Source: Clostridia bacterium (GTDB taxonomy: Bacteria; Bacillota; Clostridia; Oscillospirales; CAG-272). From it: 64,000 nucleotides of DNA. Shown here one piece after another: positions 1,100-20,795 of this stretch. The position numbers and the translations under genes were made by a program. Position 1 is the stretch's first letter. Each line of letters opens with the position of its first letter. The notes beneath the pieces are model-generated. The model worked only from the letters and a program-made list of their open reading frames with translations. It did not search any database and had not been told where the DNA came from. Location: contig JAFULC010000023.1 in the NCBI GenBank assembly GCA_017483305.1, positions 16,702 through 80,701 of the forward strand. The letters run 5' to 3'.

Positions 1100-1400
1100 C
1101 TGTTGCAAAACGAGACCATACACCGCAAAGTCGAACCTTATCTCCACGCGATCTTCATACCCACTGCTCAAGGCAGGCACCCTCGCGGCACATCGGGTTA
1201 ACCGCTTAATGCTGCTTGGTTCCCCATCTGACATGGTTCACAGCTCCCGATTGCGCAAGACCCGCCTCTCAACACAGAGGATATGACTCAATTCGTAAAG
1301 ACTCAGCCCTCAAGTGCGGGATCCACCCCTGCTGTAGCGGATTTCAGGTACAGGGCTCCGCTAAATCCCCGGCTGGTATGACCTCGTTTCGCAGCACACG
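1100..1400 (-). ncRNA. ffs: Signal recognition particle RNA (long Bacillus-type scRNA/ffs); ends approximate
   Basis: The reverse strand reads ...CCATGTCAGATGGGGAACCAAGCAGCATTAAGCGG..., which resembles the conserved SRP domain IV core (GUCAGGUCCGGAAGGAAGCAGC-like). The 5' segment CGAAACGAGGTCATACC can pair with the 3' segment GGTGTATGGTCTCGTTTTG. It lies directly upstream of dnaX, as in Bacillus (scr-dnaX synteny). It is followed by the hairpin GCAACAGACGGTTGC plus a T-rich tract, and no credible ORF is present. Confidence 0.75.
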
Positions 1401-1447
1401 GCTGCATTTTCAGCTATTTATTTGTCGGTCGATTGCGACCTCTGTAT

Positions 1448-1476
1448 ATTATAGCAGATTTTTTTCTTTTTTTCAA
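1448..1476 (-). promoter_or_regulatory. Sigma-A type promoter upstream of the SRP RNA
   Basis: On the minus strand: TTGAAA (1471-1476), a 17-nt spacer, then TATAAT (1448-1453). Confidence 0.6.
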
Positions 1477-1525
1477 TAGGTTTTTGAAAAATTAACAATT
1501 TATATTTTGGCAAAGGAAACGCGCG

Positions 1526-2116
1526 TCAGATCTCGGTTGCCGTGTCCTCGATCTTCTTTTTTGGAACTATATAGTCGCGGTTTTCGTCGAGGCGGTATTT
1601 TACGTCGCCGTCCTCTCCAATCTCGGTGACGGTGCTCTTATGAGTCGGGTAGCCGAAGCCAATCACGCAACTTATATCGAGGCTATCGTCGATCGCGAGC
1701 AGATCGCGGAGCTTATCGGCGTTTACACTTCCGAGGATGCAGGAGCCGACTCCGTGGGCATACGCGGAAAGCGTGAGATTGGAGGCGGCAAGTCCCTCGT
1801 CGAAGGAAGTGTATTTTGATTGGAGCGCTTTATCGGAGAGTATTGCCACGAACATGGTCGGTCTTTCGCCCGCTTTGGGTCTTCCTTCTCCGTTTGGCAG
1901 TGCTCCGCCCCAGCTTGTGATGTCGAATACGGCGTTGACTGTCTCGGGGGTGCGGATATAGATATAGCGAAGGGGCTGGCGGTTCATCGCGGAGGACGCG
2001 AGCTGTGCCGCTCTTTTCATATCTGCGACGACCTCGTCGGGTATTTGTCTGATTTCGTCAAAGCGGCGGTAGGTTCTTCTCTCCTCGAGTATTTGCATTA
2101 TTTCTTGTGAGTTCAT
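1526..2116 (-). CDS. Nitroreductase family protein
   Basis: The track ORF is 1526-2245. I chose the internal ATG at 2114-2116 (MNSQEIMQILEERRTYRRF...) because it follows a GGAGAA RBS. RTYRRF and the overall pattern are typical of the NADH/FMN nitroreductase fold. Confidence 0.75.
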   Translation of the reverse strand: MNSQEIMQILEERRTYRRFDEIRQIPDEVVADMKRAAQLASSAMNRQPLRYIYIRTPETVNAVFDITSWGGALPNGEGRPKAGERPTMFVAILSDKALQSKYTSFDEGLAASNLTLSAYAHGVGSCILGSVNADKLRDLLAIDDSLDISCVIGFGYPTHKSTVTEIGEDGDVKYRLDENRDYIVPKKKIEDTATEI

Positions 2117-2188
2117 ATTTTCTCCGATCTGCCGTGGGGCGTGGTGATATGCTTTATTATAGCATAACAAGGATACGATGTCAAGAAA

Positions 2189-2216
2189 AACCCAGCGCTG
2201 TGAAGGCGCCGGGTTA
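2189..2216 (-). terminator. Intrinsic terminator after the lipoprotein gene 2264-3037
   Basis: The minus strand reads AACCCGGCGCCTTCACAGCGCTGGGTT followed by TTTTTC. Confidence 0.55.
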
Positions 2217-2263
2217 ACAAATATGAATTTATTCTGAGGTGTCAAGTGGGTTAAACAGTTATC

Positions 2264-3037
2264 TTAATCAACCGTTAATCCGTACTCGTCTATAACTTTC
2301 TCAATCAGACTACACATTGTATCATCACACAGCAAATAACTATAGTCACCATAGTCTGAAAAATACTCGTATGAAAAATCGGAGTATATTTCTAAGTAAT
2401 ACTTGCCTTCATACGAATATATTTTCGCTATCCAAAGTATATTGGGATAATCTTTGATTGAAAAACTAATTGCTAAATTGTTTCTTTTTGTATCTGTAGC
2501 TGTACGCACCGGACGTGCATGAGGCCACCAATCTTTAGGGCGTGGCATTGCTTCAACGCCGAAATTGTAAATATCCGTTGCAACCAACTCTGCTACCGTT
2601 GCATCAACTTTTGTTAATTGCTGTTTTTTTAATTCTGTTTCATACGATCCAACATCATTAACAAAAGGGATTCCCATCAAAAACAATTCAGCCGAGGATA
2701 TATCAAGCTCTAACTGATGATCTGAGTCTTTTCGCCTCATAACGTGTGGAAAATCGGAGCCTCGAAATAAACCTCTCTCGCTAACCGTACACCCGATGTA
2801 TTCTTGAACTGGAACGTCTACAATTTTGTAATAAGCAAAGTAATAATCAGTGGTATAATCATGATCGAAACTCTTAGGATTACATTCGGTCCAAACATAG
2901 TTGGAGCTTAAAAGTTCATAATTGGAGATGTCCATTTCATCAAACACATCTATAATATCTAAAAAACTGGTCGAGCATGACGAGAACATGAGGACAGATA
3001 GCAGAATGCAAACAAATAAAATGTGTTTTTTCTTCAT
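2264..3037 (-). CDS. Hypothetical lipoprotein
   Basis: The N-terminus MKKKHILFVCILLSVLMFSSC is a signal peptide plus a lipobox-like Cys. An AGGAGGA RBS lies upstream. The gene is visibly more AT-rich than its flanks. I recognise no family. Confidence 0.6.
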   Translation of the reverse strand: MKKKHILFVCILLSVLMFSSCSTSFLDIIDVFDEMDISNYELLSSNYVWTECNPKSFDHDYTTDYYFAYYKIVDVPVQEYIGCTVSERGLFRGSDFPHVMRRKDSDHQLELDISSAELFLMGIPFVNDVGSYETELKKQQLTKVDATVAELVATDIYNFGVEAMPRPKDWWPHARPVRTATDTKRNNLAISFSIKDYPNILWIAKIYSYEGKYYLEIYSDFSYEYFSDYGDYSYLLCDDTMCSLIEKVIDEYGLTVD

Positions 3038-3318
3038 AATAATCCTCCTTAAATTATTTCAAATCAACAATTAAAAAGCGCATAGTACGGCACTTATCCC
3101 GACACTATGCGCAAAGTATATTTAGATTATATGCTTCGAAATATCGCTCGTAACGGATAACCGTAGCTTCACTAAACGTGTCAAGGATAATTTCATCTCC
3201 GCAATTACATTATACCATGCTTTGGCGACATTGTCAAGCATAACTTAAAAACATCCCCAAGTGAACCAAAAAACATCCCCGAGCGACGTGAAGGCGCTGG
3301 GGGCTATGTTTTATAAGA

Positions 3319-3675
3319 TTATGCCGGAATATACCAAGGGTATATAAATCGATATGCGCGGCCTTCTGAATCAAAATGGATTTGAAAATATACGGCTGGA
3401 TCTGTTCCAAAAGGTCCAACGCGTTTCTCTTTCACTTCATAACAACAACCTGCAGAATAATAGTTTCCATCTTCGCTTTTTTCTTTATGACCTCGAATAA
3501 AGTCAAATGATCCGTATCTTTCTTCGATCTCAGAGGATGTTTTCCCAAGCATCCATTCCATGTCATCCATGTCAAAGCGCCGTTTATTTGAACACGAAGC
3601 TAAGCAAATGAGAGTTGCGATTATTACACAAACAATTAAACAAGCAAATATTCTTCTTTTTTTCTTATTATTCAT
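3319..3675 (-). CDS. Hypothetical small lipoprotein
   Basis: The N-terminus MNNKKKRRIFACLIVCVIIATLICLASCSN contains the lipobox LASC. A GGAGGATTAGGAA RBS region lies upstream and the gene is AT-rich. Confidence 0.6.
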   Translation of the reverse strand: MNNKKKRRIFACLIVCVIIATLICLASCSNKRRFDMDDMEWMLGKTSSEIEERYGSFDFIRGHKEKSEDGNYYSAGCCYEVKEKRVGPFGTDPAVYFQIHFDSEGRAYRFIYPWYIPA

Positions 3676-3821
3676 TTCCTAATCCTCCTACTTATGATTC
3701 TACGGTTACTTACCCTGCACTTTTATTATAACACGTTTTGGATAATTTTGCAAGTGATTGGCTGAATTAATAAAAATTACGCCGAGCGGCGCAGTTGCAT
3801 CGCTCGGCGTATGGATGTTTT

Positions 3822-4946
3822 TTATTCGGTTAAGAGCATATCGTCCTTTTTGATCCAGCCGAGCTTGCGGAGGATCTCGCTGAAGAGCAAGGAGAGTACC
3901 GCGGGGAGAACGATGCAGCAAAGGATGAGTCCGGTCCACATCATAGGTGAGGATTTCGTGTCTGCGATGATGCCGATAGGACCGACGAGACCGCAGGTTC
4001 CCATTCCCGCGGAAACGCCCGTGCAATAAAGCTTGAAGACCATTGTGGAGAGAGGTCCGACGATCGCTGCCGCGAGCGTGGGAGGTATCCAGATGCGAGG
4101 ATTTTTGCAGATGTTACCCATCTGGAGCATCGATGTGCCGAGTCCTTGCGAGATAATGCCGCCCCATTTGTTTTCTCTGAAGCTTGATGCGGCAAAGCCC
4201 ACCATCTGCGCGCAGCATCCGACTGCCGCCGCGCCGCCTGCTAGCAAGAAGCCCTCACTCGTTCCGTTCATGACCGCGACCTCAAGGGCAGACGAGGAGA
4301 AGATCATAGCACATATTGCCGCGCTCGAGATCGGAAGAGTGAGAATAATTCCGACCACTACCGACACAACTATGCCCATAAGCAGAGGCTGGAAGGTGGT
4401 AGCCGTGGCGATAAATACGCCGAGATAATACATTACGTAGGATACGATCGGACAAAGCAGCCAGCTTGCCGCAAAGCCCACGGTGAGAGTGACTACGGGG
4501 GTGACGAGTATGTCGACCTTGGTTTTTTTCGATACGAGCATTCCGATCTCGCAGGCGATTATTACCGCGAAGAACGCGCCTGCAGGGCCTGCGCTGTAAA
4601 AGACTCCGTTGCCCGTAGCATTGGCGGTCACTGCCCAAGCCTTGATAGCTCCGCCGTTTACGACAGCGCCCATAGCGTTTGACATAGCGCCGACTGCCGC
4701 GCAGGAGAACATAACGAGGGGATGTGCGCCGAGCTTATACGCGATAGCGACACCGATAGCCATTCCCGTTGCCGCCTTGGCATAGGTGGCTATGGTATTC
4801 AGCGCGCTTGCGAGCCACGCGATCTTGACGTAGCCGCCGACTGTGCCGAAGATCGTTCCGATAAGCAGCGAGGCGAAAAGTCCGAGCGCCATAGCGCCCA
4901 TAGCGTCGATAAAATACCGATGAAGATATTTTTTCAAAGTTTTCAT
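3822..4946 (-). CDS. Multi-pass membrane protein, PTS EIIC-like permease (PTS_EIIC_2-type, from memory of the family)
   Basis: The 374-aa product is very hydrophobic and Gly/Ala-rich. Its N-terminus MKTLKKYLHRYFIDAMGAMALGLFASLLIG resembles stand-alone EIIC-like permeases. The terminator hairpin ACGCCGAGCG...CGCTCGGCGT lies at about 3779-3812. Confidence 0.5.
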   Translation of the reverse strand: MKTLKKYLHRYFIDAMGAMALGLFASLLIGTIFGTVGGYVKIAWLASALNTIATYAKAATGMAIGVAIAYKLGAHPLVMFSCAAVGAMSNAMGAVVNGGAIKAWAVTANATGNGVFYSAGPAGAFFAVIIACEIGMLVSKKTKVDILVTPVVTLTVGFAASWLLCPIVSYVMYYLGVFIATATTFQPLLMGIVVSVVVGIILTLPISSAAICAMIFSSSALEVAVMNGTSEGFLLAGGAAAVGCCAQMVGFAASSFRENKWGGIISQGLGTSMLQMGNICKNPRIWIPPTLAAAIVGPLSTMVFKLYCTGVSAGMGTCGLVGPIGIIADTKSSPMMWTGLILCCIVLPAVLSLLFSEILRKLGWIKKDDMLLTE

Positions 4947-7667: not shown

Positions 7668-7810
7668 TAAATTTCACTCCGAAGTGTTTATTTATGATAA
7701 TATTTTACCACATTTCCACGGTCTGTGTCAACCGAATTGGAGATTTATTTAAATTTTTTGGGGTGGGATCATTTTATAGTAAAAATTGCTCAAAAATTTG
7801 ATTTATCTTC

Positions 7811-9528: not shown

Positions 9529-10740
9529 ATGAATTACACCTTTTCAAAGAAAATTGCGGATCTCAAGCCGTCGGCGATAAGAGAGATTCTCAAGGCGCCC
9601 GCAACTGCCGAGACGATCAGCTTTGCTGCCGGCAATCCCGCGCCCGAGAGCTTCCCTGTGGCAGATATGGCACGGATATCCGCTGATATATACGAAAGCT
9701 CCGCGGCAAAGGCACTTCAATACGGCGCGACCGACGGATACTTCCCTTTGCGCGAGGCTATTGCCAAGAGGCAGAAGGCGATCTTCAATATCGGCAGATC
9801 GGTTGCCGAGGGGGACCGCTTTAACGACGAAACGATAGTGGTTTCGGGCGGTCAGCAAGGCATTGAGCTTGCTTGCAAGGTCTTTTGCAACGAGGGGGAT
9901 GCGGTCATTTGCGAAAATCCCACGTTTATCGGAGCGCTGAATGCTTTTAGGTCAAACGGTGCGACTGTTGCCGGGGTTACGCTTGAGGACGACGGAATGA
10001 ATATCGAGGAGCTTGAGTCGGTGATCAAGTCGACACCGAACGCGAGGCTTATCTACGTTATTCCGACCTTTCACAACCCCTGCGGTATCACGACGTCTTA
10101 CGAAAAGCGCGTTAAGATATACGAGCTTGCGAAAAAGCACGGTCTTATGATCCTTGAGGACAATCCCTACGGCGAGCTTCGCTTTGCGGGTGAGGATATT
10201 CCCACGATAAAGAGCATGGACGAGGACGGCATAGTTATCTACTGCTCGACCTTCTCGAAAATACTTTCGGCAGGAATGAGAGTCGGATTTGTGATCGCGC
10301 CCGAGGCGGTGACATCCAAAATGGTGGTCTCGAAGCAGACCAGCGACGTTCACACCACTCTCTTTTTCCAGATGCTTTGCTACCGATACATGACCGAGTG
10401 CGATCTTGACGGTCACATTCGCGATATTCAGAAGATTTATGGGCACAAGTGCTCGCTGATGCTCGAATGTCTTGACCGCGAGCTGCCGAAATCGGTGAAA
10501 TTTACACGTCCCGAGGGCGGTCTGTTCATTTGGGGCACTCTGCCCGACAAGGTAGATGCTGCCGAATTTATCAGAAAAGCAAGCGAGAGAAACGTGCGCG
10601 TGGTTCCCGGCTCTGCCTTTAACTGCGACACCGACGCGCCCTCAAATTCCTTCCGTCTTAACTACAGCACGCCCTCCGATGAGCAGATCGTTACGGGTAT
10701 CCGCGTACTCGGCGAGCTTGCGCGTGAGATGGGGCTTTGA
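9529..10740 (+). CDS. PLP-dependent aminotransferase, class I/II (2-aminoadipate/aromatic aminotransferase-like)
   Basis: 403 aa. The N-terminal pattern is KPSAIREIL...ISFAAGNP. The PLP-lysine context is STFSKILSAGMRVGF, and the C-terminal pattern is VPGSAF. Confidence 0.8.
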   Translation: MNYTFSKKIADLKPSAIREILKAPATAETISFAAGNPAPESFPVADMARISADIYESSAAKALQYGATDGYFPLREAIAKRQKAIFNIGRSVAEGDRFNDETIVVSGGQQGIELACKVFCNEGDAVICENPTFIGALNAFRSNGATVAGVTLEDDGMNIEELESVIKSTPNARLIYVIPTFHNPCGITTSYEKRVKIYELAKKHGLMILEDNPYGELRFAGEDIPTIKSMDEDGIVIYCSTFSKILSAGMRVGFVIAPEAVTSKMVVSKQTSDVHTTLFFQMLCYRYMTECDLDGHIRDIQKIYGHKCSLMLECLDRELPKSVKFTRPEGGLFIWGTLPDKVDAAEFIRKASERNVRVVPGSAFNCDTDAPSNSFRLNYSTPSDEQIVTGIRVLGELAREMGL

Positions 10741-10754
10741 GGAATTTTCAAAAT
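10729..10754 (+). repeat. Left 26-nt direct repeat bounding the cassette; overlaps the last 3 codons and stop of the aminotransferase
   Basis: ATGGGGCTTTGAGGAATTTTCAAAAT. The same 26-mer with one G/T difference recurs at 15247-15272. Confidence 0.85.
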
Positions 10755-10783
10755 TTCGATACGCAAAAGACAGTTTTTCTCGG

Positions 10784-10812
10784 TTGACACAAGAAGAAAC
10801 AAATTGTATAAT
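10784..10812 (+). promoter_or_regulatory. Consensus sigma-A promoter of the cassette
   Basis: TTGACA (10784-10789), a 17-nt spacer, then TATAAT (10807-10812). The RBS AAGGAGA lies upstream of the ATG at 10860. Confidence 0.65.
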
Positions 10813-10859
10813 AATATCACAACGTCACGCGACGGACATTTACACAAGGAGATAGAAAA

Positions 10860-11534
10860 ATGCTGCATTTTTTGGGCGACGGCTCTGCATTTAACGTGGA
10901 TTCAAATAACACCTCTGCGTATATCAAAAAGGGTGATGCCATGATTCTTTTTGACTGCGGCGAGCGTATATGCAACGTCATCATCAAGGCAGGAATTCTT
11001 GAGGGGATCAAAAGGCTTCACCTCTTTATCACCCACACTCACAGCGATCATATTGGCTCGCTTGAAGGATTTATCTACTATATCCATTACTTTACGGATA
11101 TAAAGCTGTCGGTCTACTATCCCCACACCTCGCGTCTCGATAAGATGATGCGTATGCAGGGCCTTGAGTTTGAGTATGCGACACTTCCCGTGCCCGAGCA
11201 GGTCGAGGGATACCGCGTAGATGCGGTAAGACAAAAGCATATGTTCGGAGCATACGGCTTCTTTTTCTACTCTGAGGGCGACTCCTTCTTCTTCAGCGGT
11301 GACACCTCGGTGATAAGCAAGCGTGCAAAAAAGGAGCTTTGCGAGGGCAAGATCGATGTTATTTACCACGAGGTAAGCTTTTCGGATTCTCCCATTCACA
11401 CACCCATAGCGGACCTTGAAAAAGCATTTCCGATGGAGATAAGAGACAAGGTCTATCTTATGCATTTTGCAAACGACGCCTGCCGCGAGATGGCGGCGGC
11501 CAAAGGATTTTCGGTCGTTTCGGTCGAGTATTAA
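10860..11534 (+). CDS. Metallo-beta-lactamase fold hydrolase (small stand-alone, phosphodiesterase/nuclease-like)
   Basis: 224 aa. The motif is LFITHTHSDHIGSL, i.e. H59-x-H61-x-D63-H64. Downstream metal-ligand candidates are QKHMFG, FSGDT and VIYHEVSF. Confidence 0.8.
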   Translation: MLHFLGDGSAFNVDSNNTSAYIKKGDAMILFDCGERICNVIIKAGILEGIKRLHLFITHTHSDHIGSLEGFIYYIHYFTDIKLSVYYPHTSRLDKMMRMQGLEFEYATLPVPEQVEGYRVDAVRQKHMFGAYGFFFYSEGDSFFFSGDTSVISKRAKKELCEGKIDVIYHEVSFSDSPIHTPIADLEKAFPMEIRDKVYLMHFANDACREMAAAKGFSVVSVEY

Positions 11535-11558
11535 GTTTGAAAAGGAATTACTATTGAT

Positions 11559-14399
11559 ATGAATTCAAAAAACATATTCATAAGCTACGGACACGGCATT
11601 CAGGATCACGCCGTAAAGCGCCTGGCGGATGACCTTCGGGAATTCGGATTTCAGGTGTTTTTGGACGTTGATTATTTGAAAATGGGTGACTGGGAAAAAA
11701 TAATCGACGAGCATATCATTGCCTCAAAATATTTTCTCTTTATGGTATCCTCGCGCTCGGTAGCTCACGACGGATATTGCCTCAACGAGCTTTGTCGCGC
11801 AGGTGAAAACTCTGCTGAGATCATCCCCATAAAGCTTGACGAGTCTATGCTTCCGCTCTCAATAAACAAGCATCAGCGTCTGTCTATGATCCCCTGTATT
11901 TCCCCCGACGGCACTATTATAGAGTCGGTCTACAAGAACTTTCTTGTAAATCTGGTCGAGATCCTCTCGGGCAAGACTGCTCTTGGCTTCTCGGACGCGG
12001 ATATGCGACTTCGCGGTGCGCTCAAGCCCGTATTCTCAAAGGACCTGACGTACAGTTATTACGCGACCTTCTGCGGAAGACGCGACGTGTTTGCAAAGGT
12101 TGAAAGCTTTATTAATTCAAATAAAAACATATTCTGGCTCAACGCTGCACCCGGAACGGGTAAGACGGCGTTTTCATCCATGCTTACCTGGCGCTATCCC
12201 GAGATCGTCGGTGCGGCGCACTTTTGCAAGTTCAACAACTCCGACCGAGTTAACCCCAAGGTAATAATCTCGTCCATAGCATATCAGCTCTCGGAAAGCA
12301 TCCCTGCATACCGCGAAAAGCTTTTGGGACTTATGGAGCTTGACTCTCTCTTTGAGAAAAATCCCGCGAGGATATTTGAATATCTTATCGTCGAGCCTCT
12401 CAGCACAATAGAGCGTGAGACCCCCGTCCTTGTGGTAATAGACGCACTCGACGAATGCTCATGGCGAGGCAGTAACGAGATATGCACCATACTTCAACAT
12501 ACACGTGAGAATTTGCCGCATTGGCTCAAATTCTTCTTGACCAGCCGCAACGAAGCGATAATAAGAAGAACACTTCTGCCCATCGCGCAAACCTACACGC
12601 TCTCCGAATCGAAGACCGAGGATGATCTGCGTGAGTATTACAGAATGCAGTTCCCGAGCGCTACGAGTGACAAGATCGAGCTTCTGCTTACAAAGAGCGA
12701 CGGATCCTTCCTTTACGCCAGCGAAATAGTAAAGCAGATAAAGGAAGAAAATCTTTCACTTGACGACATAAATTTCTTCCCGATAGGCATCTACGGCTTT
12801 TACAATGATTGCTTCTCGCGTATTTTCGACAGCAACAACGAGGACGCACTCGACTACAACACCGTAAAGCCTCTCTTTGAGCTTCTTTGCATAGAGCAAG
12901 AGCCGACCGAGCTTTCCTTCCTCGAGGATTTTCTCGATTGGGACGAATATACCTTAAAGAATATCCTTTCCCGCATAAACGGACTTTTCCCCACCAAGAA
13001 CGGTTTTATAGAGCCGCTGCACAAATCCATTATAGACTGGCTGACAAGCGACGATATGGGGCAGCTCTTCTATATCAGCCGCAAGAACGGATACAAGCGA
13101 CTCCTCGCCTACATAGAGGATGAATATACAAATGGCAAGTGGCACAAGAATAAATACGTTCTCAAGTATTTCGGCTTTGTGCTTATTGAGCTCAAGCGCT
13201 ACGATCGACTTGCCGACATTCTTTCGGACTGTGCGCTCGTCGAGGAAATGATAGACTATTTTGAGTTCGATTCGGGACTTGAAAGCTATCTCTCCGAGCT
13301 TGAGATACTCAACGAAAACGCCAAGGAGCGATGCCTTGAGCTTCTCACCGGCGCAACGTTTATCAAGATATTCTCCGAGAACAGACGCTTGCTTTACAAC
13401 TCGGGAATGTTCTTCAAGCTCAAGCAGCTTGGACTGTCGGTGGCTCTCCGTCAGGACACCAGCGATTGGGGACTTGAGGGTGAGGTAGGAAAGGTATTTT
13501 ACTACTACATCGTCGAGGATTTTGCCAAGGCGATAAAAAAGGCGGCAGGACTTATATCACGCGGCGAGGGCGGCGAGATGACCGCGTCCATACTTTCCGA
13601 GCTATACAACGTAAAGGGGCTCTCGGAGCGAAAGATCGTGCGCTTCGACGATGCGCTCGAGAGCTTTGAGAAGAGCATCGAGTACGCCGAGGTGGCGATA
13701 GATGAGATGGATACCACGCACAGCGACGCCGAGTTTGAGCTATCGCTTGCATATCTGATAAAGGGCAAGATATTTCTCAGTACCCTGCGCTTTGATGAAA
13801 GCAACAAGAGCTGCAAGAAGGCGATCAAGGTGCTCTCCCGAAAGATCGACGAGATGCCCGACTCCGATAAGCGCATATCCAATCTGCTGTTTTTAGCCGA
13901 GGATTATCGCGTATCCGCTTACGGCTACATCTGGCAGGGAGAGTATGAGATGGCGGCGGACAGACTGCTCTCTGCTGAGGAGATCTACCGCGAAAACAGC
14001 AACACTGTCGACAGATATTATATACGCTTTTTGTACACGTCGATCTTTCTCAAGATAATGGAAGGCAAAACGTCGGGGGTACTTGACGAGCTAAAGCAGC
14101 TTCTCTGCGAGGTCTCAAGCTCAAAGTATGACAAGGGACAGCTGCATTTCCTGACAGCACTCGAGATATTCCTTAATCATAAGGACGATATGGAGCTTGC
14201 CGCAGAGGGACTGAAGCACGCAAGAAGCGGCTCGGATATTTACGAGTCAATCGACGCGTTGCTTGAAAAGGCGGAATGCGATCTTATGATAAAGTATCTT
14301 TCCTCACGCATAGGCAAGAGAGCGCTTATTGATGAGGAAGATAACGAATACGTAGAAGAATGGATCAGCTATCTCGATTCCATTCTGAGCAAAAGATAA
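11559..14399 (+). CDS. TIR-NACHT-TPR protein (bacterial NLR-like STAND NTPase; candidate antiphage sensor/effector)
   Basis: 946 aa. The N-terminal TIR region has IFISYGH...FLDVDYL...KYFLFMVS...DGYCLNEL, with the catalytic-type Glu at E77. Walker A is NAAPGTGKT (K202), Walker B is VLVVIDALDEC (D295, D298-E299), and FLTSRNE is a NACHT-type sensor motif. The C-terminal ~400 aa are helical and TPR-like. Confidence 0.8.
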   Translation: MNSKNIFISYGHGIQDHAVKRLADDLREFGFQVFLDVDYLKMGDWEKIIDEHIIASKYFLFMVSSRSVAHDGYCLNELCRAGENSAEIIPIKLDESMLPLSINKHQRLSMIPCISPDGTIIESVYKNFLVNLVEILSGKTALGFSDADMRLRGALKPVFSKDLTYSYYATFCGRRDVFAKVESFINSNKNIFWLNAAPGTGKTAFSSMLTWRYPEIVGAAHFCKFNNSDRVNPKVIISSIAYQLSESIPAYREKLLGLMELDSLFEKNPARIFEYLIVEPLSTIERETPVLVVIDALDECSWRGSNEICTILQHTRENLPHWLKFFLTSRNEAIIRRTLLPIAQTYTLSESKTEDDLREYYRMQFPSATSDKIELLLTKSDGSFLYASEIVKQIKEENLSLDDINFFPIGIYGFYNDCFSRIFDSNNEDALDYNTVKPLFELLCIEQEPTELSFLEDFLDWDEYTLKNILSRINGLFPTKNGFIEPLHKSIIDWLTSDDMGQLFYISRKNGYKRLLAYIEDEYTNGKWHKNKYVLKYFGFVLIELKRYDRLADILSDCALVEEMIDYFEFDSGLESYLSELEILNENAKERCLELLTGATFIKIFSENRRLLYNSGMFFKLKQLGLSVALRQDTSDWGLEGEVGKVFYYYIVEDFAKAIKKAAGLISRGEGGEMTASILSELYNVKGLSERKIVRFDDALESFEKSIEYAEVAIDEMDTTHSDAEFELSLAYLIKGKIFLSTLRFDESNKSCKKAIKVLSRKIDEMPDSDKRISNLLFLAEDYRVSAYGYIWQGEYEMAADRLLSAEEIYRENSNTVDRYYIRFLYTSIFLKIMEGKTSGVLDELKQLLCEVSSSKYDKGQLHFLTALEIFLNHKDDMELAAEGLKHARSGSDIYESIDALLEKAECDLMIKYLSSRIGKRALIDEEDNEYVEEWISYLDSILSKR

Positions 14400-14415
14400 T
14401 TTATAGGAGCAATAT

Positions 14416-15192
14416 ATGAATATCAATTCGCTGATGCTCCGTCTGACGGAGATAACGAAGGAGGCGGGAGCGCGACTGCTTGCGCAGACGGTAACCGTGA
14501 ACAGTCACAAGACAAAAAATGATCTTCTGACCGAAAACGATCTCGCCACGGAAAACTATATTATTTCCGAGCTGAAAAAATATTATCCCGATGTAAATAT
14601 CATCAGTGAGGAATACAATCCCGACAATGAGCTTGAGGGAGTTACCGTAATAATCGATCCCATTGACGGCACTTGCAATTATGCGGTCGGAATGGATCTT
14701 TTCGGCATACAGCTTGCAGTCTTTGAGGATAATGTGTGCCGTGCATCGCTGCTTTACTTCCCTGTCAGCGGCGACATTTATACCGCGGAAAAGGGCAAGG
14801 GCGCATATCTCAACGGAAAGCCCTTGAGAGTTGATACGGGTGCAACTCCGAGAAATGGGATGCTCTTTATCAGCGACTACTACGACTCTATCGGAATACC
14901 GATGGATAAGCAGTTTGGTCTTGTAAAAGCGCTTCAAAAGCACTTTTTGAAGACACGTCACTTTGGTGCGGCATGCGTGGATTTTTCCATGATCGCAAAG
15001 GGACACGGCGTGGCATATATTACGTATTACCACAAGATCTGGGATATCGCCCCGGGGCTTTTGATCGCCACCGAGGCCGGATGCGTAAGCGGCGGTCTGG
15101 ACGGAGAGTACCGATACGGTGAGCCCGGACTTGTAGTCGCAACAAACAGCGAAACGCTCGAGCTTATCCGCAGACTTTACCGAGAGGTGTAG
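14416..15192 (+). CDS. Inositol monophosphatase family phosphatase (IMPase/SuhB/CysQ-like)
   Basis: 258 aa. Motifs are ISEEYNP (E65-E66), VIIDPIDGTCNY (D81, D84, T86) and KIWDIAPG. The RBS TAGGAGC lies 8 nt upstream. The start is 16 nt after the stop of the TIR-NACHT gene. Confidence 0.8.
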   Translation: MNINSLMLRLTEITKEAGARLLAQTVTVNSHKTKNDLLTENDLATENYIISELKKYYPDVNIISEEYNPDNELEGVTVIIDPIDGTCNYAVGMDLFGIQLAVFEDNVCRASLLYFPVSGDIYTAEKGKGAYLNGKPLRVDTGATPRNGMLFISDYYDSIGIPMDKQFGLVKALQKHFLKTRHFGAACVDFSMIAKGHGVAYITYYHKIWDIAPGLLIATEAGCVSGGLDGEYRYGEPGLVVATNSETLELIRRLYREV

Positions 15193-15246
15193 TTTTGCGG
15201 TTAAAAAGGATCTGTTCTCAAAAAATGAAATGTAACAATTTCGAAA

Positions 15247-15272
15247 ATGGGTCTTTGAGGAATTTTCAAAAT
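15247..15272 (+). repeat. Right 26-nt direct repeat bounding the cassette
   Basis: ATGGGTCTTTGAGGAATTTTCAAAAT, identical to 10729-10754 at 25 of 26 positions. It lies immediately upstream of the trpS T-box promoter. Confidence 0.85.
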
Positions 15273-15276
15273 CTTA

Positions 15277-15305
15277 TTGACAAATCAGATTTTGTGTGCT
15301 ACAAT
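15277..15305 (+). promoter_or_regulatory. Sigma-A promoter of the trpS T-box leader
   Basis: TTGACA (15277-15282), a 17-nt spacer, then TACAAT (15300-15305). Confidence 0.65.
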
Positions 15306-15311
15306 AGTCAC

Positions 15312-15606
15312 ATCAAACCGATGAGGAAGATTAGTAGGTCATTTCCCTTCTGTACAGAGAGCCGCGGATGATGAGAGCGCGGTCAGAACAAACGGCTGAA
15401 TGGACTTCCGAGGGTGAACGGAAATTGCATCATTAGGGTGTGGGAGTATGGGAGACGGAGGCGACTCTCCGTGAAAAAAGGTCGGCATATTACGTATGCG
15501 CAAAGAGGACGTTTTTCGTCAAGCGGGGTGGCACCGCAGGAATTTTGTTTTATTCCTGTCCCTGTACTGATAGGCTTTTCCTATCGTACGGGACAGGTTT
15601 TTTATT
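15312..15606 (+). promoter_or_regulatory. T-box leader (tRNA-Trp responsive) with terminator/antiterminator
   Basis: An AGAGA box lies near 15356. The specifier-loop context GAA-TGG-A places the Trp codon TGG at 15401-15403. The T-box sequence AAGCGGGGTGGCACCGCAGG is at 15521-15540; its UGGC would pair with an NCCA end carrying a G discriminator. The terminator stem CCTGTCCCTGTAC...GTACGGGACAGG plus TTTTTT is at 15555-15606. Confidence 0.85.
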
Positions 15607-15635: not shown

Positions 15636-16637
15636 ATGTTTAACGATCAGAAGGTCTCTTTTTCCGGCGTTCAGCCCAGCGGAAATCTGACTATTGGAAA
15701 TTATCTTGGTGCGATCAAGAATTTTTCCGCTTACTCCGAGCAGTACAAGTGCTTTTACTGTGTTGTTGACGAGCACGCGATAACCGTTCGTCAGGTCCCT
15801 GCCGACCTGCGCCGTCGCACCTACGAAACGCTTGCGCTCTACATGGCTTGCGGTCTTGACCCCGACAAGAATACGCTTTACGTTCAGTCACACGTAAAGG
15901 AGCACGCCGAGCTTGCATGGCTGCTCAACTGCTTCACCGGCTTCGGTGAGCTTTCGCGCATGACACAGTTCAAGGACAAATCCCAGAAGCACGCCGACAA
16001 CATCAACGCGGGTCTTTTCACATATCCCGTGCTTATGGCGGCTGATATTCTGCTCTATCAGACCGACGTCGTTCCCGTCGGCATCGACCAGAAGCAGCAC
16101 GTTGAGCTCTGCCGCGATATCGCGATGCGCTTCAACTCTATCTATCCCGACACCTTCACTATTCCCGAGCCCATTATGGCGAAGGCAGGCGCGAAGATCA
16201 TGTCTCTTGCCGATCCCACGAAGAAGATGAGCAAGTCCGACGAGAACACCAACGCGGTGGTCTACATTCTCGACGACAGAGACACTATAATCCGTAAATT
16301 CAAGCGTGCCGTTACCGACTCCGACACCTGCGTGCGCTATGCCGAGGGCAAGGACGGTATCAATAATCTGATGACTATTTATTCGGTATTCACTGGTGAA
16401 ACACTCGACGAGATCGAGCGCGAGTTCGAGGGCAAGGGCTACGGCGACTTCAAGCTTGCGGTCGGTGAGGTCTGCGCGGATGCACTCGCACCTGTTCAGG
16501 AGAAGTTCAAGGGCTTTATGTCCGACAAGGCTCAGCTCGAATCTCAGATGAAGAAGGGCGCCGAGGAGGCCTCTTACGTCGCACGCCGCACCCTTTCCAA
16601 GGTTCAGAAAAAGCTTGGATTCGTACAGGTGAGATAA
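15636..16637 (+). CDS. trpS: Tryptophan--tRNA ligase
   Basis: The track ORF starts at 15414, inside the T-box leader. The real start, ATG at 15636, follows GGAGGA. The N-terminus is MFNDQKVSFSGVQPSGNLTIGNYLG, and KMSKS is present (KKMSKSD). Confidence 0.92.
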   Translation: MFNDQKVSFSGVQPSGNLTIGNYLGAIKNFSAYSEQYKCFYCVVDEHAITVRQVPADLRRRTYETLALYMACGLDPDKNTLYVQSHVKEHAELAWLLNCFTGFGELSRMTQFKDKSQKHADNINAGLFTYPVLMAADILLYQTDVVPVGIDQKQHVELCRDIAMRFNSIYPDTFTIPEPIMAKAGAKIMSLADPTKKMSKSDENTNAVVYILDDRDTIIRKFKRAVTDSDTCVRYAEGKDGINNLMTIYSVFTGETLDEIEREFEGKGYGDFKLAVGEVCADALAPVQEKFKGFMSDKAQLESQMKKGAEEASYVARRTLSKVQKKLGFVQVR

Positions 16638-18844: not shown

Positions 18845-19441
18845 TTATTTCGCTTTTTTCATAGGACGAAGGGTCTTAGGATCTATCGCGGCGCAGACGA
18901 TCACGGCAAAAATGCCTGTGAGGACTGTGGTGGGCAGCATATAAGAGCTGTTATAGATCAAGGAATACACCCAGACGTTCATATTCTCGGGACCGGACGA
19001 GCCCCAGAGGATGACACCCGAGAGAAAGCTTGAAACGAAACGGATAAGGCAGACTGCGACCGCGCCGACACAATAGCCTGCGATGCGCTTTTTGCCGAAA
19101 GGCTTTGCAAAAAGGTCTGCCGCGCCCACTACCGCAAACGCTACGAGATAGTCAAGCACTATGCAAAGCACGAGCGCCCACCACGTGCCTGCGGGCGGGA
19201 TATAAAATCCGAGCAGCATCTGAAGCAGCGAGTAGACAAATCCCGCGCCGACGCCCCAAAGCGTGCCGTGTCGGTAGGAATAGTAGATTATCGGGAGCAT
19301 GCTTATGGTTATCGTTCCCCCGAAGGGTAAAAGCGCGCCGACACCCGTAATCGTGTTGAGCCAGACACAGAGCAGCTCGAGCACGTAGGCAAGAGCCAAT
19401 GACAGAGCTCCCTCTGTGACACAAAGAATTCTTTTTTTCAT
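18845..19441 (-). CDS. thiT: ECF-type thiamine transporter S component
   Basis: The start was chosen at 19439-19441 (MKKRILCVTEGALSLALAYV...) after AAGGAGGAG. The 198-aa product has about 6 TM segments. It lies directly downstream of a TPP riboswitch. Confidence 0.75.
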   Translation of the reverse strand: MKKRILCVTEGALSLALAYVLELLCVWLNTITGVGALLPFGGTITISMLPIIYYSYRHGTLWGVGAGFVYSLLQMLLGFYIPPAGTWWALVLCIVLDYLVAFAVVGAADLFAKPFGKKRIAGYCVGAVAVCLIRFVSSFLSGVILWGSSGPENMNVWVYSLIYNSSYMLPTTVLTGIFAVIVCAAIDPKTLRPMKKAK

Positions 19442-19456
19442 TTGTGATCTCCTCCT

Positions 19457-19501
19457 TAAAAAATAAAAATTCATCCGCACGAAAAATCACGGTCGGATGA
19501 A
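19457..19501 (-). terminator. Riboswitch expression-platform terminator
   Basis: The minus strand reads TTCATCCGACCGTGATTTTTCGTGCGGATGAA followed by TTTTTATTTTTT. Confidence 0.7.
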
Positions 19502-19545
19502 TTTTTTATGAGGGCGGGCGTGGCTTGCCCGATTCACAAAGCTAT

Positions 19546-19640
19546 TCTATCAAAATCTTCCTACGCCGGTATTATCCGTATCAGGTACAAGGGTTCGGAG
19601 TTCTCCGTCTCAGCCTATCTCTCGCCACTGTGCACTCGTG
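19546..19640 (-). promoter_or_regulatory. TPP (THI-box) riboswitch
   Basis: The minus strand reads ...GGCGAGAGATAGGCTGAGACGGAGAACTCCGAACCCTTGTACCTGATACGGATAATACCGGCGTAGGAAG. It contains the conserved CUGAGA and ACCUGAU-GGAUAAUACC-GCG elements. Ends are approximate. Confidence 0.85.
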
Positions 19641-19700
19641 TCAAGCTTCGGCACCCCTGATTTTTTATGCGGTTTTTTGTCGGCTTCAGCCGACGGTTTG

Positions 19701-19847: not shown

Positions 19848-20546
19848 ATGATCATTTTCACTTTGATCTTAGCAGTTATCACCAAACTGCTAAGTCCGAT
19901 GCTGAGCATTGGGACTCAACAAAATTTTCCGCCTGCGCTATCGGGCGAGGAGGAGAAAAAGAACTTCTTGCTTATGCGACAGGGCGGTCGCACAGGAGAG
20001 GACGCGAGGCAGACTCTTATTCTGCACAATCTCAGATTGGTCGCGCACATCGTTCGCAAGTATTATTCGACGGTCAAAAATCAGGAGGATCTCGTATCTA
20101 TCGGGACTATTGGACTTGTCAAGGCGGTAGACACATTTAACGTCGACAACGGCACGAGGTTTGCGACCTATGCCGCCAAATGTATTCAGAATGAGATTCT
20201 GATGAATTTCCGTTCGCAGAAAAAGCACTCCTCCGAAATATCGATAAACGAGACTATCGACGTTGACCGAGACGGAAATCCGCTTTCGTATATGGACGTT
20301 ATCAGCTCCGAGGAGGATATGGCGAACGAGGTCGAGCGCAAGATACTCAGCGAGAAGGCGCTCAAATACATAAAGACCGTGCTCTCCCAGCGCGAGCGGC
20401 AGATAATCGTTATGAGATATGGTCTTTTCGGGGTCAAGGAGCTGACACAGCGCGAGATCGCGGAAAAGCTGGGTATATCCCGCTCCTACGTTTCGAGGAT
20501 CGAAAAAAGCGCTCTTGAAAAGCTCAAAAGCGCGCTTGGGGGGTGA
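19848..20546 (+). CDS. sigK: Sporulation sigma factor SigK (pro-sigma-K, uninterrupted)
   Basis: 232 aa. It has a hydrophobic pro-sequence followed by NFPPALSGEEEKKNFLLMRQG, then HNLRLVAHIVRKY, SIGTIGLVKAV and ISRSYVSRIEKSAL. These are closer to B. subtilis SigK than to SigE as I recall them. The RBS is AAAGGAG. Confidence 0.85.
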   Translation: MIIFTLILAVITKLLSPMLSIGTQQNFPPALSGEEEKKNFLLMRQGGRTGEDARQTLILHNLRLVAHIVRKYYSTVKNQEDLVSIGTIGLVKAVDTFNVDNGTRFATYAAKCIQNEILMNFRSQKKHSSEISINETIDVDRDGNPLSYMDVISSEEDMANEVERKILSEKALKYIKTVLSQRERQIIVMRYGLFGVKELTQREIAEKLGISRSYVSRIEKSALEKLKSALGG

Positions 20547-20795
20547 TACGCCGCAGGCGGATAGTGAAGCTATCCTTCTACATATTGTTACGCCACAGGC
20601 GTGTAGTGGAGCTATCCTTCTACATATTGTTACGCCACAGGCGTGTAGTGGAGCTATCCTCCTAAAGATTAGCAAAGCTATCCTACTACGGATCGATACG
20701 CCGCAGGCGAATAGCGAGGCGTACTCCTCATCCACCGCAAGCGGTCCCCCTTCTCCCGCAGGAGAAGGCTATCACGCCGCAGGTGCGTAGGGGCG
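20547..20795 (+). repeat. Tandem repeat array, about 42-nt unit (2 near-perfect units plus degenerate copies)
   Basis: Units begin at 20547, 20589 and 20631 (TACGCC[A/G]CAGGCG..TAGTG.AGCTATCCTTCTACATATTGT). Degenerate units begin at 20697 and 20773. Each carries an ACGCCNCAGGCGT mini-palindrome. Confidence 0.85.

What the first reader, a model, noticed from the sequence alone, without database searches (positions are those of the whole stretch)
10729..15272. 26-nt direct repeats (25/26 identical) bracket exactly the three-gene cassette; the right copy re-encodes the aminotransferase C-terminus
ATGGGGCTTTGAGGAATTTTCAAAAT at 10729-10754 contains the last three codons and the stop of the aminotransferase (M-G-L-stop) plus 14 nt beyond it. 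ATGGGTCTTTGAGGAATTTTCAAAAT at 15247-15272 differs only by a synonymous G to T change, and in frame it again spells M-G-L-stop. The right copy lies 4 nt upstream of the trpS T-box promoter -35 box. The repeats enclose only the cassette promoter and its three genes. This attL/attR-like geometry, a duplicated gene 3' end, is what site-specific insertion at the end of a gene leaves behind. However, no integrase, transposase or other recombinase gene lies between the repeats. The core TTGAGGAATTTTCAA is also an imperfect palindrome. I see no intrinsic terminator between the IMPase stop (15192) and the right repeat, so cassette transcription may read into the T-box leader.
Basis: seen in the sequence. 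Interest (0 to 1): 0.7.

Follow-up and report, generated by a model that had tools for sequence, protein, structure and literature searches.

The report
Recombinase-less defence cassette insertion footprint
A 4.5 kb three-gene block that looks like an anti-phage immune system was inserted into the tiny gap between two housekeeping genes of a ruminant-gut bacterium, duplicating 26 bases of the target, and no gene in or near the block encodes an enzyme that could have inserted it.

Summary
ATGGGGCTTTGAGGAATTTTCAAAAT (10729-10754) recurs 25/26 at 15247-15272, and no shuffle gives such a match. Eight related genomes (about 90-92% nucleotide identity) have the aminotransferase followed directly by the trpS T-box, with one copy of the 26-mer. 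Twelve metagenome contigs of the window's own lineage carry the insert. Between the repeats lie a consensus promoter and three genes: an MBL-fold hydrolase (Apyc1-like), a 946-aa TIR-NACHT protein, and an IMPase-family phosphatase. None of them is a recombinase. The TIR-NACHT/IMPase pair sits in six other chromosomal contexts in gut Clostridia. None of those has a mobility gene nearby or flanking repeats. In a 97%-identical sister lineage the left copy has decayed, so the footprint is a fossil and not a working att pair. A second, unrelated insertion in the window (2214-3278) is bracketed in the same way by a 23-nt duplication (19/23). I therefore favour insertion with target duplication done in trans, the kind described for restriction-modification units. 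Site-specific att recombination in trans remains a close rival. This is a clean new member of a known kind, and it carries an unclassified candidate defence system.

The parts
9529..10740 (+). PLP-dependent aminotransferase gene (403 aa). Its last 12 nt (M-G-L-stop) form the first part of the left repeat.
   Evidence: ORF; Pfam Aminotran_1_2 at 6e-35.
10729..10754 (.). Left copy of the 26-nt target duplication (ATGGGGCTTTGAGGAATTTTCAAAAT).
   Evidence: Alignments of empty-site relatives to the window stop at 10754. This copy has decayed in L103/L104.
10755..15246 (+). Inserted DNA (4,492 bp; 4,518 bp counting one repeat copy). It is absent from eight related genomes.
10784..10812 (+). Cassette promoter, TTGACA-17-TATAAT (12/12 match to consensus).
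10860..11534 (+). MBL-fold metallo-hydrolase (224 aa) with the THTHSDH motif. It is Apyc1-like and RNase Z-like, and it is an optional member of the cassette.
   Evidence: Pfam Anti-Pycsar_Apyc1 at 43 bits (cut-off 50) and Lactamase_B_2. PDB 7fct at 1.5e-28 and Apyc1 7u2r/7u2s at about 1e-12. Present in 4 of 7 cassette contexts.
11559..14399 (+). TIR-NACHT (STAND NTPase) protein with a helical repeat C-terminus, 946 aa.
   Evidence: Pfam TIR_2 at 6e-13 and NPHP3_N at 1.6e-25. E77, the G199/G201/K202/T203 P-loop and D295/L297/D298/E299 are invariant in 16 homologues sharing 30-87% identity with it. Only the TIR part matches PADLOC models.
14416..15192 (+). Inositol-monophosphatase-family phosphatase (258 aa) with the DPIDGT and WDIAPG motifs. 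It always follows the TIR-NACHT gene.
   Evidence: Pfam Inositol_P at 2.7e-45; PDB IMPase/SuhB at about 1e-25. It sits directly downstream of the TIR-NACHT gene in all 7 contexts.
15247..15272 (.). Right copy of the duplication (ATGGGTCTTTGAGGAATTTTCAAAAT). It is identical to the single copy in the empty sites L105 and L106.
   Evidence: Alignments of empty-site relatives restart at 15247.
15277..15305 (+). trpS promoter, TTGACA-17-TACAAT with an upstream TG.
   Evidence: It is conserved in the empty-site relatives.
15312..15566 (+). T-box leader with a UGG specifier.
   Evidence: Rfam RF00230 at 89.5 bits (gathering score 93), E 3.3e-20, full-length model match.
15636..16637 (+). Tryptophanyl-tRNA synthetase gene.
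   Evidence: Pfam tRNA-synt_1b at 1.4e-74.

Best explanation
A linear or circular piece of foreign DNA was inserted once into an ancestor of this strain lineage. It consisted of one consensus promoter and three genes: an MBL hydrolase, a TIR-NACHT protein and an IMPase-family phosphatase. It landed in the 18-nt gap between the aminotransferase stop codon and the trpS -35 box, and the event duplicated 26 bp of the target. This much is shown. The duplication left an intact gene end on the left. On the right it left the native sequence upstream of the trpS promoter, so neither neighbour was damaged. The joining enzyme is not encoded in the insert. I infer that this was an 'insertion with target duplication' carried out in trans by a process that does not depend on the cargo. 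In that model, breaks staggered by about two and a half helical turns are joined to the incoming DNA and the gaps are filled. This is the same kind of event described for restriction-modification units that lack mobility genes. I do not think it was recombination at a dedicated att site. The footprint is now a fossil. The cargo is most likely an abortive-infection type anti-phage system. In that reading, the STAND NTPase senses infection and switches on the TIR NADase, and the two hydrolases process nucleotide substrates or products. This last step is inferred from domains only. The confidence of 0.45 refers to the in-trans target-duplication mechanism; the insertion itself and its polarity are close to certain.
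For: Insertion and polarity:
- Eight relatives at about 90-92% nucleotide identity have one 26-mer and aminotransferase-T-box-trpS adjacency. Their alignments to the window end at 10754 and restart at 15247, overlapping by exactly 26 nt.
- 43 of 80 aminotransferase loci across the family have trpS directly downstream, and none has the cassette genes. The empty state is therefore ancestral.
- The arrangement is not an assembly artefact. Twelve fetched contigs from ten assemblies carry the occupied site.

No element-encoded or dedicated recombinase:
- No recombinase domain in the three products, in five antisense ORFs of the insert, or in ten integrase-sized ORFs of the window.
- No other element occupies this site in the 90 aminotransferase-bearing loci from other genomes examined.
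- The 26-mer is absent from IMG/VR. The TIR-NACHT protein has no hit in phage records or IMG/VR and only weak partial hits (27-30% identity) in plasmids. The insert DNA has no plasmid hit.
- The insert holds only 105 + 54 nt of non-coding DNA outside the three genes.

Fossil status:
- In the 97%-identical lineage L103/L104 the left copy has 4 substitutions and a 6-nt deletion, while the right copy is intact.

Generality:
- A second insert, 2214-3278, carries a low-GC ORF and no mobility gene. It is bracketed by a 23-nt direct repeat (19/23) that is unique in the window and single-copy in L001, L002, L004 and L107. The duplicated target there is a terminator hairpin.

Precedent:
- Furuta et al. 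2010 (PMC2853133) describe defence-gene units inserted with target duplications and no other mobile element. Their repeats often span a neighbour's start or stop site.

Cargo:
- The TIR-NACHT/IMPase pair is conserved in 7 contexts.
- Catalytic residues are invariant.
- A TIR-NLR of the same architecture protects E. coli from phages (PMC9122126).
Against: - No enzyme or mechanism is known that makes 23-26-nt staggered target duplications in these bacteria. 'Long target duplication' is a descriptive class, not a defined mechanism.
- Twenty-six bp is below the 30-bp threshold that Furuta et al. used specifically to exclude att-type repeats. It lies within the usual range of att cores.
- The second example is imperfect (19/23). 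It could instead be an insert that brought a homologous terminator with it.
- The six other cassette contexts show no flanking duplication, so the geometry is not a regular property of this cassette.
- The one-base difference between the copies fits either model.
- The defence function is inferred from domains only. PADLOC recognises only the TIR part.
Confidence: 0.45

Rival explanations
1. Conservative site-specific recombination. The 26-mer is an att core. A circular form of the cassette carrying the same core (attP) recombined with the chromosomal copy (attB), giving attL and attR. The recombinase was supplied in trans. It could have been a helper element's integrase (a non-autonomous element, like a CIME) or a host recombinase, as happens for Xer-exploiting elements.
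For: - The geometry is exactly that of attL/attR, with one copy at empty sites and sharp repeat boundaries.
- The repeat spans the 3' end and stop codon of a conserved gene, and 26 bp is typical of att cores.
- The reconstructed circular junction has 12-nt inverted arms, AATTTCGAAAAT and ATTTTCAAAATT, 13 nt apart.
- The one-base difference between copies is natural if attP and attB differed.
- CIMEs, which are elements that kept attL and attR but lost their integration genes, are documented (PMC5704250).
Against: - No helper element or any other occupant of this site was found in the 90 aminotransferase-bearing loci from other genomes.
- The 26-mer is absent from viral contigs, and the junction has no significant match in phage records.
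- The inverted repeat is no better than about 3% of shuffles, and attB lacks the left arm.
- The left copy is not conserved in the sister lineage.
- A second insert nearby has the same geometry at an unrelated target, which would need a second recombinase.
- The six other cassette contexts have no repeats or recombinases.
Confidence: 0.33
2. Remnant of a larger integrated element. A prophage, ICE or IME integrated at the aminotransferase 3' end by its own integrase. Internal deletions later removed everything except a useful defence cassette, leaving both att sites.
For: - Same att-like geometry.
- Defence systems are common cargo of such elements.
- Decay to a CIME is a described route (PMC5704250).
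Against: - Only 105 nt (holding the cassette's own promoter) and 54 nt remain between the genes and the repeats, so both deletion endpoints would have had to fall within these short stretches.
- There are no gene fragments of phage or conjugation functions.
- Relatives of the same compact two- or three-gene unit occur elsewhere with no mobile-element genes around them.
- No intact element is seen at this site in any relative.
Confidence: 0.1
3. RecA-type single crossover (Campbell integration) between the chromosome and a circular DNA that happened to share about 26 bp with it. The repeat length would then simply be the length of shared homology.
For: - The repeat lengths (26 and 23 nt) are close to the minimal homology length reported for RecA-dependent recombination in E. 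coli (own knowledge, not tested here).
- No dedicated recombinase is needed, which fits.
Against: - The donor circle would already have to carry a sharply bounded 26-bp copy of this particular junction. That only pushes the origin of the duplication back one step.
- No similarity extends beyond the 26 bp on either side.
- No such donor was found.
Confidence: 0.07
4. Chance repeat, dispersed intergenic repeat, or assembly chimera.
For: None beyond the AT-rich, partly palindromic character of the 3' half of the repeat.
Against: - No match in 100 shuffles.
- Only two copies in the window.
- One copy at each of eight empty sites, exactly at the junction.
- The only four matches in the metagenome collection lie in unrelated DNA.
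- The occupied arrangement was assembled independently in ten samples.
Confidence: 0.01

Closest known systems
Insertion with long target duplication of restriction-modification units (Nobusato et al. 2000; Furuta, Abe and Kobayashi 2010, PMC2853133)
   Same: - A small defence-gene unit is present in one genome and absent from a close relative.
- The target is single-copy at the empty site and directly duplicated at both ends.
- There is no transposase or integrase in or beside the insert.
- The repeat is unique in the genome and spans the stop site of the neighbouring gene. Their H. influenzae case has a 46-bp repeat overlapping 15 bp of a gene's 3' end.
   Different: - The duplication here is 26 bp. 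Their operational threshold was above 30 bp, and their cases run from 46 to more than 400 bp.
- The cargo here is a TIR-NACHT system, not a restriction-modification system, so no cargo nuclease could have made the breaks.
- The host is an uncultured gut Oscillospiraceae bacterium.
- The mechanism of the class is itself unknown.
CIME (cis-mobilizable element): decayed ICE or IME that kept attL and attR but lost its integrase (PMC5704250)
   Same: - Direct repeats flank an integrase-less insert at the 3' end of a conserved gene.
- The right-hand copy carries a displaced duplicate of the gene's end.
   Different: - No related ICE, IME or prophage uses the site in any relative.
- There are no remnants of transfer or integration genes.
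- The insert is a bare promoter-plus-operon unit.
- The left site is decaying.
Single-gene TIR-NLR, bNACHT and Avs anti-phage STAND NTPases (for example the TIR-NLR of Rousset et al. 2022, PMC9122126)
   Same: - N-terminal TIR with an invariant catalytic Glu.
- Central NACHT-type P-loop NTPase.
- Long helical C-terminal region.
- Patchy distribution as a small accessory unit.
   Different: - No PADLOC model matches beyond the TIR domain, and no NCBIfam family reaches its cut-off.
- The protein is always followed by an IMPase-family phosphatase and often preceded by an Apyc1-like MBL hydrolase. I found neither partner described with TIR systems in the searched literature.
- Function has not been tested.
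DNA transposons and casposons (element-end recognition with a fixed-length target site duplication)
   Same: The insertion is flanked by a direct duplication of target DNA.
   Different: - No transposase or Cas1.
- The terminal inverted repeat is only TTCGA/TCGAA, 5 bp (read from the sequences).
- Twenty-six bp is longer than the usual 2-15 bp duplications.
- The two inserts in the window share no terminal sequences.

Membership tests
Site-specific integrative element (attL/attR) | Direct repeats at both ends that correspond to a single copy at the empty site | tested here: met
   Eight empty sites have one 26-mer, and alignments overlap by exactly 26 nt.
Site-specific integrative element (attL/attR) | Tyrosine or serine recombinase gene inside the element (autonomous form) | tested here: not met
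   Pfam finds only MBL, TIR/NACHT and IMPase domains, and nothing in five antisense ORFs.
Site-specific integrative element (attL/attR) | Excised circular form or regenerated attB within the population | not testable with these tools
   No read data are available. All 12 contigs of the lineage are occupied. The left copy is degenerate in L103/L104.
CIME / trans-mobilised integrative cassette | A recombinase-bearing helper element that uses the same att site in related genomes | tested here: not met
   The 90 aminotransferase-bearing loci from other genomes are either empty or hold housekeeping genes. The 26-mer is absent from IMG/VR. Only eight genomes of the species cluster were sampled, so this is not conclusive.
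Insertion with long target duplication (Furuta et al. 2010) | Insert absent from a close relative whose flanks align on both sides; target duplicated directly | tested here: met
Insertion with long target duplication (Furuta et al. 2010) | No mobility-related gene in or next to the insert; repeat not a multi-copy element | tested here: met
Insertion with long target duplication (Furuta et al. 2010) | Duplication longer than 30 bp (their operational cut-off) | tested here: not met
   The repeat is 26 bp; the criterion is quoted.
DNA transposon | Terminal inverted repeats and a transposase (or a family of copies sharing ends) | tested here: not met
   Only a 5-bp TTCGA/TCGAA match at the ends (read from the sequences), no transposase, and a single copy in the window.
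TIR-STAND (NLR-like) anti-phage proteins | TIR domain with catalytic glutamate | tested here: met
   TIR_2 at 6e-13. E77 in the CLNEL motif is invariant in 16 homologues.
TIR-STAND (NLR-like) anti-phage proteins | NACHT/STAND P-loop NTPase module | tested here: met
   NPHP3_N at 1.6e-25. GxGKT and the Walker B DxLDE motif are invariant.
TIR-STAND (NLR-like) anti-phage proteins | Match to a curated defence-system model, or demonstrated phage protection | tested here: not met
   PADLOC matches only the TIR part, at E 1e-7 or weaker. NCBIfam hits fall far below their cut-offs. A protection phenotype cannot be tested here.
T-box leader (RF00230) | Score at or above the Rfam gathering threshold with a full-length structure | tested here: inconclusive
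   89.5 bits against 93, E 3.3e-20, model positions 1-219, UGG specifier, directly upstream of trpS.

The most novel reading that the evidence does not exclude
Small accessory cassettes in these gut Oscillospiraceae enter very short intergenic gaps by a recombinase-gene-independent process that duplicates about 23-26 bp of target. Two unrelated inserts in this one window show it. This would extend the unexplained 'insertion with long target duplication' from restriction-modification units to other cargo and to Firmicutes. It would suggest a host or trans-acting enzyme with a fixed stagger of about 2.5 helical turns. The cargo here, TIR-NACHT plus an IMPase-family phosphatase with or without an Apyc1-like MBL hydrolase, would then be a new multi-enzyme anti-phage system.
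Probability: 0.25. Interest if true: 0.65.

Novelty: new member of a known kind. Interest (0 to 1): 0.45.

Why it matters
- **Clean example of an unexplained event.** How defence systems without mobility genes get into new chromosomal sites is poorly understood. This locus gives a dated example. The exact target is known, with eight empty sites. The exact insert is known. An intact 26-bp duplication survives in one lineage, and a decaying copy is seen in a sister lineage. The case therefore brings the 25-year-old, mechanistically unexplained 'insertion with long target duplication' into a new phylum and a new cargo class, and the samples that hold the strain can be named.
- **Why the duplication may matter to the host.** The duplication may be what lets an insert land in an 18-nt gap between a stop codon and a promoter without harming either neighbour.
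- **An unclassified candidate immune module.** The TIR-NACHT/IMPase(/MBL) unit is conserved across many gut Clostridia and is not recognised by current defence-system models. Its accessory enzymes point to nucleotide-phosphate processing around a TIR NADase.

Tried and rejected
1. **Dispersed or chance repeat: rejected.** Two copies in the window, none in shuffles. The four matches in the JGI metagenome collection lie in unrelated DNA.
2. **Assembly chimera: rejected.** Ten assemblies carry the occupied site.
3. **Occupied state ancestral, with precise loss in relatives: rejected.** Outgroups decide it: 43 of 80 aminotransferase loci have trpS directly downstream and none has the cassette.
4. 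**Hidden recombinase: not found.** Nothing in the three products, five antisense ORFs or ten integrase-sized ORFs of the window.
5. **Other elements at the same site: none.** L009, L026, L032 and L042 hold housekeeping genes there (SpoU methylase, radical SAM, MatE, YitT), and these reflect lost synteny.
6. **Phage or plasmid vehicle: none.** The TIR-NACHT protein has no hit in IMG/VR or phage records and only weak partial plasmid hits. The insert DNA has no plasmid hit, and the reconstructed circular junction has no significant phage match.
7. **Flanking repeats around six other cassette contexts: none above shuffle level**. Two of these contexts are truncated downstream.
8. **Compositional foreignness of the cassette: not seen.** GC, GC3 and codon likelihood are all in range, so the donor was probably a related bacterium.
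9. **Dyad symmetry as proof of a recombinase site: too weak.** About 3% of shuffles do as well.
10. **Closer donor: none sampled.** The best non-self TIR-NACHT shares 87% identity and sits in another site.
11. **Exact-protein look-up of the window's aminotransferase: found nothing**. The lineage was reached through the IMPase and through cluster members instead.
12. **Literature on TIR together with IMPase in defence: nothing found**.
Full report
**1. The observation**

They differ at one base. No third copy exists in the 64 kb with up to three mismatches, and none of 100 dinucleotide-preserving shuffles gives any match. A whole-window repeat search ranks this pair as the best non-tandem direct repeat. 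Similarity stops sharply at both ends of the 26 nt.

The left copy contains the last three codons and the stop of a 403-aa PLP-dependent aminotransferase (9529-10740). The right copy ends 4 nt before the -35 hexamer of a TTGACA-17-TACAAT promoter (15277-15305). Next come a T-box leader (15312-15566) and trpS (15636-16637). The leader scores 89.5 bits, just under Rfam's gathering score of 93, with E 3e-20, a full-length model match and a UGG specifier.

No terminator-like site or stable hairpin lies between the IMPase stop at 15192 and the right copy. The folding z-score for that stretch is 0.39.

**2. What lies between the repeats**

The 4,492 bp between the copies hold a 12/12 consensus promoter (10784-10812) and three co-oriented genes.

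| Gene | Coordinates | Product | Evidence |
|---|---|---|---|
| 1 | 10860-11534 | 224-aa MBL-fold hydrolase, THTHSDH motif | Best Pfam match is anti-Pycsar Apyc1, below cut-off; PDB 7fct at 1.5e-28 and Apyc1 at about 1e-12 |
| 2 | 11559-14399 | 946-aa TIR-NACHT protein | TIR_2 at 6e-13, NPHP3_N at 1.6e-25 |
| 3 | 14416-15192 | 258-aa inositol-monophosphatase-family protein | Inositol_P at 2.7e-45; PDB IMPase/SuhB at about 1e-25 |

None of the three is a recombinase. Five antisense ORFs in the insert have no Pfam match. Ten integrase-sized ORFs elsewhere in the window are housekeeping genes or have no Pfam match.

PADLOC recognises only the TIR part of the large protein, and no NCBIfam family reaches its cut-off. 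In an alignment of 16 homologues sharing 30-87% identity with the window protein, three features are invariant: the TIR catalytic Glu (E77), the P-loop (G199, G201, K202, T203) and Walker B (D295, L297, D298, E299).

**3. The empty-site test**

A scan of one genome per species with the aminotransferase returned 80 loci. Five of them share 95-97% protein identity with the window's aminotransferase and about 90-92% nucleotide identity with the window: L001-L004 and L012. In each, the aminotransferase is followed directly by the T-box and trpS. Three further contigs, reached through members of the aminotransferase's 90% cluster, show the same (L105-L107).

Each of the eight has exactly one copy of the 26-mer at the junction. 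Their BLAST alignments to the window end at 10754 and restart at 15247, overlapping by exactly 26 nt in the relative. In L105 and L106 the 26-mer and the sequence following it are identical to the window's right copy.

None of the 80 loci encodes any of the three cassette proteins. In 43 of them trpS lies within 500 nt of the aminotransferase stop. The empty state is therefore ancestral and the window carries an insertion.

The insertion is not an assembly artefact. Eight contigs from eight samples are 99.7-99.99% identical to the window and carry the same junctions, including the G/T difference. An exact look-up of TrpS found only occupied contigs.

**4. Age and state of the footprint**

A more divergent occupied lineage, L103/L104, is 97% identical to the window and also has the cassette at this site. 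Its right copy is intact. Its left copy reads ATGGGACTTTAAGGAACTATCA followed by a 6-nt deletion. The stretch between the aminotransferase stop and the cassette's -10 box is the most divergent part of the whole 11-kb alignment.

The insertion therefore predates about 3% divergence within the lineage and postdates the split from the relatives at about 91% identity. The repeat pair is not being maintained. Only the copy that sits upstream of the trpS promoter is conserved. This is a fossil footprint, not a working pair of recombination sites.

**5. Where the cassette occurs elsewhere**

The TIR-NACHT protein belongs to a large family of about 945-aa proteins in gut Clostridia metagenomes (984 hits). 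Six contexts outside this lineage were read.

- The IMPase gene always follows the TIR-NACHT gene directly.
- The MBL gene is present in three of the six contexts and absent in the other three.
- The flanks are unrelated housekeeping genes in five different chromosomal places.
- No integrase or transposase lies within 6-10 kb.
- None of these cassettes has flanking direct repeats above shuffle level.

DNA similarity between cassettes begins about 15 nt before the first start codon and ends inside the IMPase gene. No conserved element ends can therefore be defined.

The closest non-self relative shares 87% identity (L082). It lies in a related genome between a PTS EIIC gene and the SRP RNA gene. 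No relative was found in IMG/VR or phage records, plasmids gave only weak partial hits, and the insert DNA has no plasmid hit. The 26-mer is absent from IMG/VR. Its four matches in JGI metagenomes lie in unrelated DNA.

The cassette's GC (47.5% against 49.7%), GC3 and codon usage are within the range of the window's core genes. The donor was therefore probably a related bacterium.

**6. A second case in the same window**

Comparison with L001, L002, L004 and L107 shows a second strain-specific insert at 2214-3278. It lies between the EIIC gene and the nitroreductase promoter. It carries one 257-aa ORF on the minus strand with GC 36%, GC3 0.34, no Pfam match and a lipoprotein-like N-terminus.

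It is bracketed by a 23-nt direct repeat, 2191-2213 and 3279-3301, matching at 19 of 23 positions. The repeat is unique in the window and does not arise in shuffles. It corresponds to a single terminator hairpin at the empty sites.

The geometry matches the main finding. A boundary element in a tight intergenic spacer is duplicated, so each neighbour keeps its own copy. The target, the cargo and the insert ends are all unrelated to the first case. This example is less clean, because the insert might have brought a homologous terminator with it.

**7. Mechanism**

Shown:
- There was a single insertion, and its polarity is known.
- It duplicated exactly 26 bp of target.
- The insert encodes no recombinase.
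- No other element uses this site in the genomes sampled.
- One copy of the repeat is decaying.

Inferred: how the joints were made. Two readings remain.

- **Insertion with target duplication, done in trans and independent of cargo.** Staggered breaks are joined to incoming DNA and the gaps are filled. This is the event class described for restriction-modification units without mobility genes, where the repeats often span a neighbour's start or stop site (PMC2853133).
- **Conservative att-site recombination by a recombinase supplied in trans, or decay of a larger element to a CIME** (PMC5704250).

My reasons are the bare promoter-plus-operon content of the insert, the absence of any helper element or other occupant at the site, the lack of conservation of the left copy, and the second insert with similar geometry at an unrelated target. 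The att reading stays close, at about 0.33 in trans plus 0.10 for a decayed larger element. Twenty-six bp is a typical att-core length and is below the 30-bp threshold that Furuta et al. used to exclude att repeats. The gene-3'-end position is classical for att sites. The reconstructed circular junction shows a 12-nt inverted repeat, although about 3% of shuffles give one as good. The single G/T difference does not discriminate between the readings. The position is a synonymous site that varies among relatives (T, A and G).

**8. Consequences for the neighbours**

The duplication leaves the aminotransferase reading frame and stop codon intact on the left. On the right it leaves the native 22 nt upstream of the trpS -35 box. 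Neither the empty nor the occupied site has a terminator ahead of the trpS promoter. Any read-through, from the aminotransferase in empty sites or from the cassette here, meets the T-box attenuator. The insertion therefore does not obviously change trpS control.

**9. The cargo**

By domain content the cargo is an NLR-like immune module: a STAND NTPase fused to a TIR NADase. A TIR-NLR of the same architecture protects E. coli against phages (PMC9122126). The obligate IMPase-family partner and the optional Apyc1-like MBL hydrolase are not part of any model in PADLOC. I found no paper linking IMPase-family enzymes to TIR defence.

My inference, untested, is that the two hydrolases process phosphorylated or cyclic nucleotide substrates or products of the TIR domain. 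They might feed NADP-derived substrates to it, or clear leaky product.

**10. Verdict**

The site-specific recombination part is not demonstrated. The finding is a well-resolved new member of a known kind, a recombinase-less insertion with target duplication, and it carries an unclassified candidate defence system. Interest is moderate.

Noticed in passing
window 2191-3301: A second strain-specific insert (2214-3278) is absent from L001, L002, L004 and L107. It is bracketed by a 23-nt direct repeat (2191-2213 and 3279-3301, 19/23) that duplicates a terminator hairpin present once at the empty sites. The cargo is one low-GC (36%) 257-aa ORF on the minus strand (2264-3037) with a lipoprotein-like N-terminus and no Pfam or NCBIfam match.
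   Followed up: partly
L082 5697-10258; window 1381-3822: The closest non-self cassette (87% TIR-NACHT identity) lies in a related genome between the PTS EIIC gene and the SRP RNA gene. This is the same variable spot where the window holds the nitroreductase gene and the low-GC insert. L105 and L003 carry yet other content there. It looks like a local hotspot for small accessory genes.
   Followed up: partly
L103 3111-3236 and L104 3117-3242 (equivalent to window 10729-10860): In the 97%-identical occupied lineage, the stretch from the aminotransferase stop to the cassette -10 box is far more diverged than the 3% average, by my count about 20% plus a 6-nt deletion. Sequence from the -10 box onward is nearly identical. 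Divergence along the 11-kb alignment is mosaic, which suggests recombination among occupied alleles.
   Followed up: partly
L083, L096, L099/L100 versus window, L081, L082, L097: The MBL (Apyc1-like) gene is an optional first gene of the cassette. The TIR-NACHT/IMPase pair is invariant across all contexts read.
   Followed up: partly
window 1116-1381 (-): Bacterial large SRP RNA gene (171.9 bits).
   Followed up: no
window 19541-19668 (-): TPP riboswitch (70.1 bits) upstream of a Thia_YuaJ-type thiamine transporter gene (18845-19480, minus strand).
   Followed up: no
window 20544-20735: Three to four tandem copies of a 42-nt unit lie downstream of a sigma-70-family gene. The relatives L001 and L002 lack about 170 nt here.
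   Followed up: no
L001 7675-8261 (equivalent to window 7763-7790): L001 carries a small lipoprotein-like gene between polA and the SH3-domain gene. L004 keeps only the 3' remnant of it, and the window has neither. This looks like gene decay rather than insertion.
   Followed up: partly
loci L020-L078: In more distant relatives trpS starts only 20-60 nt after the aminotransferase stop, too short for a T-box leader. The T-box-controlled arrangement seems confined to the window's closer relatives.
   Followed up: no
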